64,000 nucleotides of DNA, from positions 63,302,001-63,366,000 of the forward strand of contig OZ024745.1 of NCBI GenBank assembly GCA_964016885.1, given 5' to 3'. The first letter of the stretch is position 1, and each line of letters begins with the position of its first letter. Under the pieces are notes generated by a model that did no database searches, was not told the origin of the DNA, and saw only the letters and a list, made by a program, of their open reading frames with translations. Origin of the DNA: Eledone cirrhosa (Eukaryota). Both the position numbers and the translations under genes were made by a program. Of this stretch, positions 7,990 to 13,199 are shown one piece after another.

Positions 7990-8170
7990 GTTGGAGGCAG
8001 TAAAAACCAGTTAGACCATTACTCATCAGAGTACTCGATACTTGGGGTAGTGGTGTGAGAAATATGAAAAATTCGAGACCCCCGACGACTGAGTTCCGAC
8101 CGTTTCAAAAGCTACATCTAGATTATGAAACGGCCGGAGCTTAGCCAACGGTGTCCCGAATTTTTCATAT
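7990..8170. mobile_element. Decayed fold-back PLE-derived element
   Basis: Imperfect inverted repeat 8062-8106 / 8126-8170; GAAACGGCCG half-HHR; homologous to 59645-59760. Confidence 0.6.
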
Positions 8171-8176
8171 ATGTAT

Positions 8177-8348
8177 ATAATTGTTTCTACTTTTAGGCAC
8201 AAGGCCAGCAATTACCCAGTGCATTACTGGTACTTTATTTTATCGACCCCGTAAGGATGAAAGGCAAAGTCAACCTCGGCGGGATTTGAACTCAGATCGT
8301 AAAGGGACGTAACTATGCTAGAAAGCATGGTGTCTGACCATCTACCGA
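8177..8348 (-). mobile_element. tRNA-derived SINE (octopod-type)
   Basis: B-box-like gagttcaaatcc on the minus strand; body gcctttcatccttacggggtcgataaaataaagtaccag; 3' end agtagaaacaattat; several more copies in the window. Confidence 0.85.
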
Positions 8349-8795
8349 ATAGAAGAAAACGAGGAAGTTTCGTTTACATATGAAAACTATTTATTGCGTA
8401 TCGACCTGTTACGCCCATACCGCAGATGTTTGGCTGAAATTGATCCATAGGAATTATGGACCAGACTCCAGTATCGATGTGCTCGTCACACTGGTGATGT
8501 TACAAAGGATATATATATATATATATATATATATATATTTATTATATATATATATTATATATATATATATATATATTATATATATATTATATATATATAT
8601 ATATATATATATATATATATATATATATATATATATATATATATATATATATATATATATATATATAATGTAGGAGGTGAGTTTTATTGTAGTACAATAA
8701 AGCAATGCAGATATCGGATAAGAAGCACTCTACAGTTTGTAGGACTGGAGTATACATAATATAAGATCAAAAGATGGTTAAAGGAGTTCCATGTA

Positions 8796-8862
8796 TTTTA
8801 TTATGCGCATTTCAAAAACAAACATCATCATGCAATAATATTTGTGTTTTCATCAGATAAAA
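8796..8862 (-). ncRNA. Hammerhead ribozyme motif (mirror copy)
   Basis: Exact reverse complement of 8981-9047. Confidence 0.7.
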
Positions 8863-8980
8863 CAGGAGAACATGATATGAAGGCTAAAAAACACTTGTGG
8901 ATAGTGCAGTTGATAGTATATGTTGATTTAAAACTGCACTATCCACAAGTGTTTTTTAGCCTTCATATCATGTTCTCCTG

Positions 8981-9047
8981 TTTTATCTGATGAAAACACA
9001 AATATTATTGCATGATGATGTTTGTTTTTGAAATGCGCATAATAAAA
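8981..9047 (+). ncRNA. Hammerhead ribozyme motif
   Basis: ttttat-CTGATGA(8987-8993)-36-nt helix II-GAAA(9030-9033)-tgcgca-TA-ataaaa; AUA triplet. Confidence 0.72.
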
Positions 9048-9111
9048 TACATGGAACTCCTTTAACCATCTTTTGATCTCATATTATATATATATATATA
9101 TATATATATAT

Positions 9112-9645
9112 GGGTAAACATTGATGCAATTCAAATCAAGCACTCAAAGTACTCATTCCACATAGTAGTGACGGAGTAAATATCGAATAAGGAAAAGCGA
9201 AGTAGTTTCAGATGTTCAAGTCCTTTAATAATAATGCTGTGATATATATTTCAATGGCGAAATTGGCCGTACTGTTCTGTGCGCCAGTCTCGCGACATCG
9301 TCAGACAGCTTGTTACATAATAAGGTTATGTTTCCGAGGCAATCCAAATTGAATAAATATGGGAACGGACGAAGTATGTGCTTTTGGGTTCTTCATCCGT
9401 TCCCCAAGTGAGTACCAATTCACCCCTACTGGTCTGCGCAGGCGCAGGTCCAGGGGGATGTTGACAATTAGCTACCGCAGATTTAAACGAAATTCGCTTG
9501 GTCAGTTCCCTCTCTCAGCCAGACAATGACCCATTCAAGTCGGCACAATAGTTTACTGCTACCCATCCCATCTGAAATATATATCAGCATTATTATTAAA
9601 GGACTTGAACATCTGAAACTACTTCGCTTTTCCTTATTCGATATT
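9112..9645. mobile_element. Fold-back PLE-derived element (~73-bp arms, ~320-nt spacer)
   Basis: Arms ~9179-9252 and ~9573-9645; degenerate CTGACGA...GAAC on the minus strand at ~9265-9305; (TA)n flanks. Confidence 0.75.
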
Positions 9646-9721
9646 CTATATATATATATATATATATTATATATATATATTATATATATATATATATATA
9701 TATATATATATATATATATAT

Positions 9722-9995
9722 AATAGGTTACAGTATCGTAAAAGAGGATAGAAAGAAGAGATATAAAGAAGTGCGATACAGAATGTTACATGCCAAAAGC
9801 GGATGCGTCTTGTGCTCACTGCTTGGGTTATCAGGGTTAAATATTAGAGAAAGTTGATATTTAGTGTAAGGATTAAGCAGTGCTGTAATACGCAAAAGAA
9901 TGCTTGAATGGAAGAGTTACAAGCCGTTAAAACATATCTTTATATAAAGATATGTTTTAACGGCTTGTAACTCTTTCATTCACGCATTCTTTTGC
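9722..9995. mobile_element. Fold-back element with 104-bp spacerless palindrome
   Basis: Arms 9892-9943 / 9944-9995 (2 mismatches), left extension, (TA)n flanks. Confidence 0.75.
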
Positions 9996-10057
9996 TTATA
10001 TATATATATATATATATATATATATATATATATATATATATATATATATATATATAT

Positions 10058-10228
10058 TTAGGGCGGATAAAATTCCCGAGATCCATGGACGAGTTCTCTC
10101 CAGCGGTCTCTGTTCCTCATTATTGCTGCCATGTCCTGCGACTCCAACAGACCAGTGTCTGTCCTTAGGGCATCAACATACGTTGACCTTGGTCTTCCGC
10201 TTCCAGTGTGTCCATGTAGGGGCTCCCA
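10058..10228 (-). mobile_element. 3' terminal fragment of an RTE/RTE-X-like LINE
   Basis: Minus strand translates WEPLHGHTGSGRPRSTYVDALRTDTG...MRNRDRWRELV, the typical RTE-group C-terminus; the stop runs straight into (TA)n. Confidence 0.7.
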
Positions 10229-10315
10229 CATATATATATATATATATGTATATATATATATAAATATATATACATATATATATATATATATATATATATA
10301 TATATATATATATAA

Positions 10316-10930
10316 ATTTATTGTATAGAAGGAGCTTCTACAGGACTAGTACTGTTTCATTCAGATGAAATCTTCATGAAGCTGGGTGTCATATTAAGTT
10401 CTGGTATTTATACATTTAGGTAGTGGTAAGGGAGGGGTAGTGGCTGGGGGGGGGGGGTGATTTGGGGGTAGGATGGTATTTAGATACACAGGACCACAAC
10501 ATGGCACAGGCCGTTTTTTCTTTGGGGAGTGGTCAATTAGCCAGAGTGCTTTTGTGAAATAAAGGGAAAGAAAAAGAAAAAGTAAATAAATAAGTAAATA
10601 AATAAATAAATAAATAAATAAATGAATAAATAGATAAATGAATAAATAAATAAGAATAAATAAAAATAAATAAAAACCCCAAACAGATATATAGAAGGGA
10701 AATATTTTTAGAAAAATCCCCCCCCCCCCCAGCCACAACCCCTCCCTTACCACTACCTAAATGTATAAATACCAGAACTTAATATGACACCCAGCTTCCT
10801 GAAGATTTCATCTGAATGAAACAGTACTAGTCCTGTAGAAGCTCCTTCTATACAATAAATATATTTTACTCTGCCATGTATTGAGTACCTTACTTACTGT
10901 AGTTATCCCCGACTCAACCCGGGACCTACG
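10316..10930. mobile_element. Fold-back PLE-derived element (~147-bp arms)
   Basis: Arms ~10316-10462 and ~10714-10860; ~70-nt extension on the right; HHR-like motif in the arms; (TA)n flanks. Confidence 0.85.
10793..10843 (+). ncRNA. HHR-like motif with insertion 3' of the cleavage site
   Basis: agcttc-CTGAAGA-tttcatctgaat-GAAA-c-agtact-a-GTC-ctgta-gaagct, followed by AATAAA; the left-arm mirror has a C3>A change. Confidence 0.5.
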
Positions 10931-13199
10931 TATATATATATATGTATATATATATATATATATATATATATATATATATATATATATATATATATATATA
11001 TATATATATATATATATATATATAATATGTGTGTGCGTATGTGTGTGTCTGTGTGTATCCGTATGTGGTTGATGGCTGAAAGAGAGGAGTACTCAATACC
11101 AAAGTAGAGTTTTACAATGTTTGTATATTAAGGCTAAAAATTGAGTCACAGGTTCATCGGACAAGAACTAAGGTTTCAATGGCAGACACAGTATAAGGAA
11201 GACTTGGAGTGGGGGAAGGAGGATTTAGTTATATGTTTTTGATTATGTAATGTTTAACAACTCATTTGTTCCTTCTCAAAACTGATTACGCCACCACTGC
11301 ATTTGCATAATTTTGCACAGGTCATAATTGTCTTTTAACTCACCGTACGAGTACTTCAGAGCTATTTTTCAGTTCCTATGACTTTTGTACTCTGGATAGT
11401 AAAACAGCTTCCCTCTATTCATAAGAGAATTCTGGTATGTGAGGATTACTCAATAAAAAAAGAAGGTCTACCTAATCTGTATTTTGTGACTAAACATTAA
11501 TTTGAAAACATTTCATAAGCCTTTCATAGAAAGCGAAACATAGTTGCTTTTTAATTTCTTATTGCATAGATCGATGTTTCCACTTTGCTATAAGTGTGAT
11601 AAAAATTGTGCATATTATAGCGTTAAAACCTTATCATATTCTACGCATTAATGTAATTGTTTGCAATGCGATTAGATTAACGAACCAATACACCATACAC
11701 TCATTCATTTATTCCGCTACGATTACGAACAATGATAAGCAAAACGACCGAAATTTTGGGTTTTGCCAATAAATAGAACATCTATAGGACGCAAGCAGTA
11801 CGAAAGATTTGTTTATCTCTATGCCACACTTCATTGATACGAAATTAATATGGTAATACATTTCTATTTTACTATCTATTAAAAATATCATATGAACATG
11901 TACGACTTTATAATTTACTATCAATAATATAGATATTCCTCAAGATATGATACATTTCTTTATAAAATTAAATTCAAAAATACTTTCCGTCTCATATTTA
12001 TAGAAGCATTCTCAAAATAGGCTAGAAGAGAACGATTTTAGTTAAGATCAGTATTTGCTATATCTGAAGGCATTTTTTAGTTGCTTCTTTTCAAGAAAGT
12101 ACCATATTCACAGGCTATCATATGTTATTTTAATCCTAAAAAAATCTAATTAGGAAATTTGAACATGTCTGATTTTAATTTATTTTGCCGGTTTTTAGTA
12201 ATTTAAAAATAGTTAAGTTATTTTTATTTAGTTTCGAAACAAATATTTACGTAATATTACAGACGCAATCAACATGGAAAAATCATTGAAATTATCATGA
12301 TTTAAAGTTATTGATTTTTTTGAATAGTTAAATTAATGCAGAAGAAATATTATAGTTCGATAGTCTCAAAACTGTTGCGATATTTAATAGGACATTAAAT
12401 TTAATAAATTAAAGAATATCACAGCGAATGGTCATGTGTTTAGACTAAAGCAGTTCATTGGTAATTTTAATTAAAAAGGCTGTTTAAGTCTTCGTTTAGT
12501 TTCGCTAACGATCACTCTTTATCAACATACAGGCTCGTCGTTGCAGCGGTGATCATCCAATATATGTATGCAGATATAGGATCATATGATGTATAAACAT
12601 GCTTCTATTTTTTTTTAAATAGTAGCTTGTGATAGAGTAAAGGCTCTGTGTGGTTCTACTCCTCGACAGTTTTATTTCAGTGACAGCGTCCTCGCAAATG
12701 TAAGAAAGGAAATAATATAATATACATCGAAGAAAACAAACAAGTATAGTACATAATAGGAATGATTTTAGTAACTTTATCTCAATAAATACATGAGTAT
12801 ATTAGCATGACCGCAAAACACCAGAAAAAGTCGAATTGAGATCAATGACAAGAAAAGGGAGAAATGTCTTAAAAGGATGTGTGAAGTATATGGAAATGAA
12901 ATTAGTTAAAAAATGACATGCAGTTGATTTAGTAAAACAGAATATATATGGCCATAATCGATGGATAAAACGTTTCAAGCTTATTAGCCAAGGAATCAAG
13001 CATGGCTAGGTTGCCAGAAAGCTTCAAACTGAGAGTAATCTAGATAAGTAAAGTAGTCATGGACCAATTACCAGTATTCAGTCTCTCACCTTAAAGGATA
13101 AACTGATGAGGAGATAAAAACAAAATGCCTAATGCACAAAAGAAAATAAGATGCAGGCAATATAATTAGGTGTAACACGAGATGCAGAGTTCGCGGAAT

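What the first reader, a model, noticed from the sequence alone, without database searches (positions are those of the whole stretch)
7990..11230. Colony of ribozyme-bearing fold-back mini-elements in (TA)n tracts
Seen: within 3.2 kb, five sequence-unrelated inverted-repeat units (7990-8170, 8667-9086, 9112-9645, 9722-9995, 10316-10930) plus fragments (8350-8510 with a degenerate HHR on the minus strand, 11070-11200). Nearly all are bounded by (TA)n. They share one architecture: two head-to-head arms with 3' ends pointing outward, one arm ending directly in (TA)n, the other carrying a 70-170-nt extension, and an HHR motif where enough sequence remains. Known: Penelope-like elements carry minimal HHRs in pLTRs and form inverted partial copies with a one-sided tail. 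Inference: a diverse population of non-coding, TA-targeted PLE derivatives. Read-through would give long dsRNA hairpins with a ribozyme in either polarity.
Basis: partly seen in the sequence, partly recalled or inferred. Interest (0 to 1): 0.75.

Follow-up and report, generated by a model that had tools for sequence, protein, structure and literature searches.

The report
Twin-primed fold-back Penelope (Hydra) insertions
These short hairpin-shaped inserts in TA repeats are real and are likely dead, one-off tail-end copies of Hydra-type Penelope retrotransposons; the new part is a conserved pair of small hairpins that sits right at the elements' two alternative ends and likely tells the enzyme where to start copying on each DNA strand.

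Summary
The five fold-backs are real; 9 of 10 ends abut (TA)n. Complete hammerheads occur in U2 (both arms), U3 and U5 (one arm each); U1 keeps half, U4 none. The 8350-8510 'HHR' was not confirmed. Inverted 5'-truncated copy + one-sided tail + HHR is the published Penelope-like (PLE) insertion unit, and this scan noted similar fold-backs in two other genomes. A Hydra-clade PLE ORF lies at 62734-63999. In 93 Hydra-ORF loci I found a conserved bulged hairpin, usually twice in the 5' UTR, 58-81 nt apart; copies end just 5' of hairpin 1 (tail-less) or hairpin 2 (tailed). Every window tail starts with a variant of it. In another genome an ORF-bearing Hydra family makes the same short fold-backs with differing junctions, so they look like one-off products, not spreading mini-elements. 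In 6 of 10 informative inversions the tail-less arm is longer or non-overlapping, which favours priming both target strands from two start sites over snap-back. Read-through RNA is predicted to bury the ribozyme. Known kind; the hairpin pair and twin-priming reading were not found in my searches. Parent ORFs of U1-U5 are not in hand.

The parts
7746..7946 (+). F0: solo PLE 3' end: type I HHR 7746-7811, tail hairpin 7861-7882, ends in (TA)n; no inverted arm
7990..8170 (-). U1 fold-back: tail 7990-8061 with degenerate hairpin 8031-8056, arms 8062-8170 (78%), only the 3' half of an HHR; older insertion
8176..8348 (+). Interspersed repeat (7 further matches in the window), unrelated to the PLE pieces, next to U1's right end
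8350..8508 (.). F1: unassigned piece; HHR not confirmed; a degenerate tail-hairpin-like stem at ~8465-8500 (+) seen by eye only
8668..9088 (.). U2 fold-back: tail 8668-8751 with hairpin 8725-8751 (-), arms 8751-8911/8932-9092, 20-nt loop, intact HHRs 8796-8862 (-) and 8981-9047 (+)
9112..9645 (-). U3: tail 9112-9178 with hairpin 9140-9177, HHR 9236-9309 (-), family 3' UTR continuing to ~9567, short inverted arm 9568-9645; high-copy family
9722..9995 (-). U4: loop-less palindrome 9888-9999, 166-nt tail with a long-loop, degenerate hairpin 9813-9883; truncated 3' of the HHR core
10058..10230 (-). F2: 3' end of an RTE-type LINE (C-terminal ORF residues), also in the TA tracts; not PLE (motif likeness recalled)
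10316..10930 (+). U5: arms 10312-10457/10719-10864, 261-nt spacer with (TAAA)n, intact HHR 10793-10843 (+), C3A copy 10333-10383 (-), tail 10865-10930 with hairpin 10868-10888
11064..11215 (-). F3: solo PLE 3' end with hairpin 11089-11110 and a GAAA/stem III remnant ~55 nt upstream
2704..3002 (+). Solo, tail-less copy of the 59-kb family (86% identical), HHR 2802-2942, ends at the proximal site in (TA)n, extends further 5' than the fold-back
59027..59587 (.). Sixth fold-back: perfect 426-nt palindrome 59162-59587, long-stem-II HHR in both arms, 135-nt tail with hairpin 59072-59154, (TA)n both sides
59636..59830 (-). Solo tailed copy of the U1 family (79%), no fold-back, hairpin 59668-59693
62073..63999 (-). 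Hydra-clade PLE: 421-aa 5'-open ORF (RT thumb, CxCX5C linker, GIY-YIG EN), 3' UTR with long-stem-II HHR (4-bp stem I, by eye) ~55 nt before (TA)n; tail-less; no nucleotide match to U1-U5

Best explanation
Each unit is likely a single, dead insertion of a Hydra-clade Penelope-like retrotransposon, likely made by priming reverse transcription on both strands of a (TA)n target from two start sites that two conserved hairpins are inferred to mark. Shown: Hydra elements carry the hairpin RCTC-stem-loop-T[TCA]-GAGYRC twice, 58-81 nt apart, just upstream of the ORF (in a tandem transcript, just downstream of the pLTR and its HHR); copies end a few nt 5' of hairpin 1 (tail-less) or of hairpin 2 (tailed); fold-backs pair one end of each type. 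Inferred: the RT-EN protein, probably a dimer, binds the hairpins; the GIY-YIG domain nicks both strands of the self-complementary (TA)n; one cDNA starts at site 2 and one at site 1; both stall early, often in or near the HHR helices; repair joins their 5'-truncated ends head to head. The tail is the interval between the two sites. Each insertion leaves (TA)n on both sides, so the tract stays a target and collects unrelated families. The HHR is a passenger from the pLTR and is predicted to be buried in read-through RNA.
For: Architecture equals the published PLE unit. Hydra PLEs are (TA)n-targeted and HHR-bearing; one lies in the window. Hairpin: 23 of 47 distinct HHR-bearing Hydra 3' ends (11 no motif, 4 end earlier in TA, 9 contig ends; null 23 of 8600); 39 of 44 5' UTRs; first inner pair, not required by the pattern, pairs in 73 of 74 hairpins (52 C-G, 21 T-A; shuffle max 63). 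All six window tails start with it 0-5 nt from the short-arm end; strict descriptor 5 hits, all in tails, vs max 3 in 300 shuffles; U2's hairpin matches L055's at 22 of 23 nt. ORF-linked inversions L083, L028 and L115 end 3-7 nt before hairpin 1. In G001 the family of ORF-bearing L087 ends at two sites only and makes a 290-nt U2-like fold-back (L127). U3 family reads: recurrent TA end at 9180 (19 contigs), depth falling ~700-fold toward the 5' end. Tail-less arm longer or non-overlapping in L115, L116, L122, L127a, L139, L132 (6 of 10 assignable); a snap-back copy of one cDNA cannot give these. A Poseidon PLE cuts and extends both strands and starts at two sites that bound the tail in vitro (PMC11167929).
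Against: No ORF-bearing parent of U1-U5 was seen; the window's Hydra ORF is a different family. U1 and U4 hairpins are degenerate; U4's tail is longer than the spacing predicts. Neptune, Nematis and Poseidon ends were not tested for the hairpin. Distal ends sit 2-4 nt before hairpin 2 clearly in 3 of 13 alignments; 3 are blurred by TA-like sequence, 4 read through hairpin 2, 3 stop earlier or at a contig end. Loop-less palindromes (U4, 59 kb) and short junction hairpins (L116) fit snap-back at least as well. L139 has ~300 nt of unrelated spacer and may be two events. The window's own U3 junction was not listed in the reads laid. Protein binding and start sites are inferred from genomic ends only.
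Confidence: 0.62

Rival explanations
1. Same origin (PLE insertion), but the inversion forms by snap-back: one cDNA from the distal site folds back on itself, is copied, and the endonuclease resolves the copy at the AT-rich site before hairpin 1.
For: Loop-less or short-loop tips with near-identical arms (U2, U4, 59 kb); tailed arm longer in U3, L083, L028, L127; self-priming and EN resolution are proposed in PMC3846280 and PMC8557442.
Against: Cannot yield a tail-less arm that is longer than, or does not overlap, the tailed arm (6 cases); solo tail-less copies show site 1 is an end on its own. It may still act at the joining step.
Confidence: 0.2
2. The units are truncated copies of another HHR-bearing, TA-targeting PLE clade (Neptune or Nematis) rather than Hydra.
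For: No parent ORF seen; A-U hairpin variant not found beside any Hydra ORF; Neptune also has microsatellite bias and HHRs.
Against: Hairpin geometry, cut-to-hairpin distance and tail length match Hydra loci; U2 vs L055 22 of 23 nt; a Hydra ORF is in the window.
Confidence: 0.09
3. The fold-backs are non-autonomous elements (retrozyme- or MITE-like) that spread as units through hairpin or circular RNA.
For: U3 family is very abundant (1594 contigs laid); non-autonomous PLE derivatives exist.
Against: Second copies in the window are not inverted; only two opposite-strand joints, at other places and single-locus depth (contigs and PCR can lose palindromes); same-family junctions differ in G001; no tandem units; HHR fold disfavoured.
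Confidence: 0.06
4. Assembly or library artefact (chimeric palindromes), or DNA-transposon TIRs.
For: The 59-kb unit is a perfect palindrome; no read spanned a window junction.
Against: Arms differ by substitutions, stop at a biologically defined site, carry HHRs, and the same form occurs in independent assemblies and reads.
Confidence: 0.03

Closest known systems
Hydra-clade C-terminal-EN PLEs (Craig et al. 2021, PMC8557442)
   Same: (TA)n targets, sense type I HHR near the 3' end, inverted 5'-truncated copies; the tail hairpin is visible by eye in published consensi that reach the tail (Hydra-2_Amil, Hydra-2_Ajap; twice at the 5' end of Hydra-1_Ajap).
   Different: U1-U5 hold no ORF; hairpin has A-U in place of G-C; the paper's main text has no 'hairpin' or 'stem-loop' and gives tails as 30-40 bp, here 66-166.
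PLE insertion unit: head-to-head inverted pLTR plus one-sided tail (PMC3846280, PMC8557442 Fig. 2); paired min-HHRs on opposite strands 100-700 bp apart (PMC4209133)
   Same: Whole architecture.
   Different: Those papers propose self-priming or EN resolution; arm-length data here favour two primings.
Poseidon PAc of Anolis (Frangieh et al. 2024, PMC11167929)
   Same: Two internal RT start sites bounding the tail; both strands cut and extended; HHR cleavage not needed.
   Different: PAc starts lie in an AC-rich stem-loop inside the ORF; here ends lie just 5' of two repeated hairpins in the 5' UTR; inversions are not explained there.
Non-LTR retrozymes (PMC7229834; bioRxiv 10.64898/2026.07.22.740005)
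   Same: Non-coding, type I HHR, PLE-related.
   Different: Retrozymes are head-to-tail tandems that release circles; these are head-to-head with one HHR per polarity at most.
Twin priming of L1 (recalled)
   Same: Two primers on opposite target strands give an inversion; L132 is a non-overlapping inversion with a 9-nt gap.
   Different: Here the two starts are fixed sites and the arms usually duplicate the same sequence.

Membership tests
EN+ PLE insertion unit | Head-to-head inverted 5'-truncated copy | tested here: met
   HHR orientation gives 3' ends outward
EN+ PLE insertion unit | Tail on one end only | tested here: met
   66-166 nt, longer than the 30-40 bp in PMC8557442
EN+ PLE insertion unit | Minimal type I HHR with palindromic stem III in the pLTR | tested here: met
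   U2, U3, U5 full; U1 half; U4 none
EN+ PLE insertion unit | 5'-truncation gradient in the family | tested here: met
   U3 family only: summed depth 2.5e5 at the arm, 3e2 at the 5' end (not a copy number)
Hydra clade | (TA)n insertion preference | tested here: met
Hydra clade | ORF with RWK, DKT, CxCX5C linker, C-terminal GIY-YIG lacking CCHH, in the same family as U1-U5 | tested here: inconclusive
   No ORF remnant in the units; met for the separate element at 62734-63999 and its homologs and for families of look-alike fold-backs in G001
Hydra clade | Tail hairpin (feature defined here, not in print) | tested here: met
   A-U variant
Hydra clade | Hairpin absent from other PLE clades | tested here: inconclusive
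   Three 9-mers searched in the Craig supplement: 4 of 6 hits in Hydra UTRs, 2 in what read as coding parts of Naiad/Chlamys files; Neptune, Nematis, Poseidon not available
Naiad clade | Lack of canonical HHR | tested here: not met
   canonical HHRs present
Non-LTR retrozyme | Head-to-tail tandem units, each with an HHR | tested here: not met
Non-LTR retrozyme | Circular RNA | not testable with these tools
   no RNA holder listed
MITE / DNA transposon | Symmetric TIRs at both ends, shared by all family copies | tested here: not met
   one-sided tails; solo non-inverted copies

The most novel reading that the evidence does not exclude
Hydra-clade PLEs carry a clade-wide, undescribed cis-element: two tandem bulged RNA hairpins in the 5' UTR, each docking one subunit of the RT-EN dimer and fixing an RT start a few nt upstream. 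One RNP thus primes both strands of a (TA)n break, which explains at once the tail (inter-hairpin distance), tail-less copies, and the head-to-head inversion typical of Penelope-like elements.
Probability: 0.5. Interest if true: 0.72.

Novelty: new member of a known kind. Interest (0 to 1): 0.5.

Why it matters
As elements these are ordinary PLE debris. But how PLEs make tandem/inverted insertions and tails is named as an open question in PMC8557442. The hairpin pair gives a defined RNA signal and a sharp prediction (start sites move with each hairpin; deleting one removes one end class and the inversions). It also offers a short diagnostic for classifying ORF-less Hydra fragments that repeat pipelines may call MITEs or unknowns, and warns that such hairpin inserts score as pre-miRNA-like in loose scans.

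Tried and rejected
No host genome was held, so no genome-wide census. Rfam: no HHR model hit; sub-threshold miRNA hits only reflect the palindromes. HHR in 8350-8510: not found. Hydra profile against six frames: only 62737-63999 scores. Viral contigs: 61 pattern matches, 0 relatives. No RNA holder listed; not evidence either way. MAFFT alignments of the hairpins misaligned the 5' strand, so no covariance model was built; descriptor and profile scripts were used instead. A first reading of U3's hairpin (9149-9177) was replaced by 9140-9177 after family reads showed C at 9148, restoring the inner pair. Snap-back was my working model until. A literature search for a 16-mer of the 8176-8348 repeat found nothing; that the host is an octopus is recalled from that repeat and was not verified. 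Earlier-scan look-ups by place, by sequence and for the hairpin gave nothing.
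Full report
Observation. The region is animal-like DNA rich in microsatellites and LINEs. Five inverted pairs are present at the stated places. Arms differ at 2 of 157 (U2), 0 of 59 (U3), 2 of 52 (U4), 2 of 142 (U5) positions; U1 is 78% complementary. Each has a one-sided extension of 66-166 nt. Nine of ten ends lie within 3 nt of (TA)>=5, against 3.4% of the window within 8 nt (tail ends are partly circular). 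A type I hammerhead descriptor gave 5 hits in 64 kb, all in 7746-10843, and 0 in 1000 shuffles of the TA-stripped region. With longer stem II it gave 8 hits and 0 in 100 whole-window shuffles. Four of the five first hits have a palindromic stem III. Only U2 has two intact HHRs. The 8350-8510 HHR was not found. Rfam saw none.

Beyond the coordinates. A sixth fold-back of the same build lies at 59027-59587. Its family has a solo, tail-less, longer copy at 2704-3002, and U1's family has a solo tailed copy at 59636-59830: in both families the second copy is not a fold-back. At 62734-63999 (-) is a 421-aa open frame with a GIY-YIG hit (E 3.7e-4, just under Pfam's cut-off). Its 35 homologs (24 aligned) show MRW, ADK(T), CNCRxxxxCP and no CCHH, the Hydra-clade marks in PMC8557442 (section 11 read). 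Its 3' UTR has an HHR about 55 nt before (TA)n (by eye). It has no nucleotide match to U1-U5.

What is known. PMC8557442 (abstract, passages, sections 11 and 15, supplement parts 1, 2, 52, 53 and two searches) describes the inverted 5'-truncated copy, the 30-40-bp tail, and HHR plus (TA)n preference in Hydra, with an Octopus member. PMC4209133 (parts 1-2 of 4) reports min-HHRs with palindromic helix III and pairs on opposite strands 100-700 bp apart. PMC3846280 (passages) reports head-to-head junctions and proposes self-priming. PMC11167929 (parts 1-2 of 4 and passages) shows both strands cut and extended, two start sites bounding the tail, and HHR cleavage dispensable. bioRxiv 10.64898/2026.07.22.740005 (part 1 of 5; supplements closed) and PMC7229834 (passages) define retrozymes as tandems. 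PMC13282606 (passages) lists recent Penelope families in Octopus and does not mention hammerheads. So the architecture is published. Two earlier notes of this scan reached the same view in other genomes (not checked).

The hairpin pair. All window tails begin with a similar stem. I fetched 79 Hydra-ORF loci from metagenomes (best 80 of 527) and 14 from genome contigs. An HHR was called downstream of the ORF in 54 of 92 loci with an ORF end (61 had 300 nt or more of flank; L015 and L040 calls are doubtful). Of 47 distinct ones, 23 have GCTC-N-T[TCA]GAGC[AG]C 28-61 nt after the cut, 4 end earlier in TA, 11 lack it, 9 reach the contig end; shuffles gave 23 of 8600. It also occurs within 300 nt upstream of the ORF in 39 of 44 loci, usually twice, 58-81 nt apart in 22 of 24 distinct pairs; 95 sense versus 4 antisense hits. 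Inner pairs not demanded by the pattern hold in 73, 57 and 44 of 74 hairpins, above all 2000 shuffles (relatedness not controlled). Tail-less ends lie 0-7 nt before hairpin 1 in U1-U5, the 59-kb unit, L083, L028 and five G001 inversions; one same-family comparison (L059) diverged 13 nt before it. Tailed ends lie 2-4 nt before hairpin 2 in L019, L028, L050; the other 10 of 13 alignments were blurred, read through, or ended early. Window hairpins carry A-U for G-C (U4 keeps GAGC). The strict two-form descriptor hits 5 times, all in tails, against at most 3 in 300 shuffles. A profile trained on Hydra loci ranks seven tails first when the A-U swap is allowed (19-31 bits; shuffle maxima 14.5-20.9 in 12 shuffles), but weakly without it. 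No ORF-linked A-U hairpin was found. Searches for this element or for twin priming in PLEs found no description; subscription papers, Repbase entries and unseen supplements are not covered.

One-off or spreading. Reads and contigs of 4 of 23 listed runs were laid on U3's tail, arm and interior at 85% likeness. The family is abundant (1594 contigs in X1), depth falls about 700-fold toward the 5' end, tail depth is roughly a third of arm depth, and 19 contigs leave into (TA)n at 9180. Two opposite-strand joints were listed, at 9244/9347 (one contig, depth 16) and 9203/9256 (4 reads, 2 starts); neither is the window's junction, which was not listed. Palindromes are easily lost in such data. Family letters differ from U3 on both sides of two stem II pairs (9257/9293, 9261/9289; pairing read by hand), as expected if the fold was selected in source elements. 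In G001, a prokaryote bin holding Hydra-bearing contigs, the hairpin pattern hit 30 times versus 1 for the control. The family of ORF-bearing L087 ends at two sites only, and L127 is a 290-nt fold-back with HHRs in both arms, one tail and TA on both sides. Same-family junctions differ (L127 vs L132; L116 vs L127a), and fold-backs cluster in shared TA tracts there too.

Mechanism. If one cDNA snapped back, the tail-less arm could never exceed the tailed one. It is longer in L115 (602 nt, reaching the ORF's C-terminus, vs 87), L116 (240 vs 66), L122 (158 vs 86), L127a (229 vs 148), L139 (125 or more vs 66; long unrelated spacer) and non-overlapping in L132; the tailed arm is longer in U3, L083, L028 and L127; U1, U2, U4 and the 59-kb unit are near equal; U5 is unassigned. 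Two RNA-templated starts are therefore needed in at least those six. With the in vitro PAc data this favours priming of both target strands from two hairpin-marked sites, then head-to-head joining, possibly helped by short snap-back synthesis. Protein binding, dimer use and start positions are inferred, not shown.

Ribozyme in read-through. In a head-to-head unit the sense HHR follows its own complement in either direction. Forcing the HHR fold costs 102 (U2, both strands), 80 (U5), 184 (59 kb) and 22 (U3) kcal/mol, against 6 for the solo copy F0. Long dsRNA is plausible if transcribed; cleavage is predicted to be suppressed. No RNA evidence was available.

Verdict. Real; a new member of a known kind (PLE insertion debris, likely Hydra clade), not a new mobile element. 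Interest comes from the hairpin pair and the twin-priming test it allows.

Noticed in passing
window 62734-63999 (-): Hydra-clade PLE ORF, open for 421 aa to the window edge, with long-stem-II HHR in its 3' UTR; may be intact beyond the window.
   Followed up: yes
window 2802-2942, 59225-59524, ~62125-62235: Type I HHRs with stem II of 90-115 nt, much longer than the Hydra HHRs listed in the Craig supplement.
   Followed up: partly
L132 (G001:C61:10633-10746); also L116, L139, U1, U3, U4, 59-kb tip: Arm 5' ends fall at or near the HHR; L132's tail-less arm starts about at the cut site, a single hint that cleaved RNA can be a template.
   Followed up: partly
window 16457-19861 (-), further copies 21563-25128 and 31320-34970: LINE with RT and C-terminal restriction-like motifs, 1134-aa open frame, near (ATT)n tracts; looks like R4/Dong (recalled).
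   Followed up: no
window 25684-30729 and ~36300-41794 (+): Two similar L1/Tx1-like elements (endonuclease, RT, zf-RVT), with frame breaks.
   Followed up: no
window 47077-48824 (-) and 10058-10230 (-): RTE-like LINE remnants; the second is a bare 3' end inside the TA colony.
   Followed up: partly
window 8176-8348, 21006, 35219, 42454-42895, 43886, 60012: Interspersed SINE-like repeat, 8 matches; resembles an octopus repeat (recalled, unverified).
   Followed up: partly
window 1041-1416: Small element between TA tracts with ~25-31-nt inverted ends and an internal duplicate of one end; MITE-like.
   Followed up: no
window 4661-4726: 66-nt palindrome (94%) not next to a TA tract.
   Followed up: no
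window 52068-52383: 58/118-nt tandem repeat array.
   Followed up: no
G001 (L083-L092 part), G003-G005: Prokaryote genome bins contain contigs with animal-type Hydra PLEs and TA microsatellites, likely host DNA in the bins.
   Followed up: partly
L085 1840-2091: A tail-to-tail inversion starting inside hairpin 1 between two related (77%) copies, unlike the head-to-head units.
   Followed up: no
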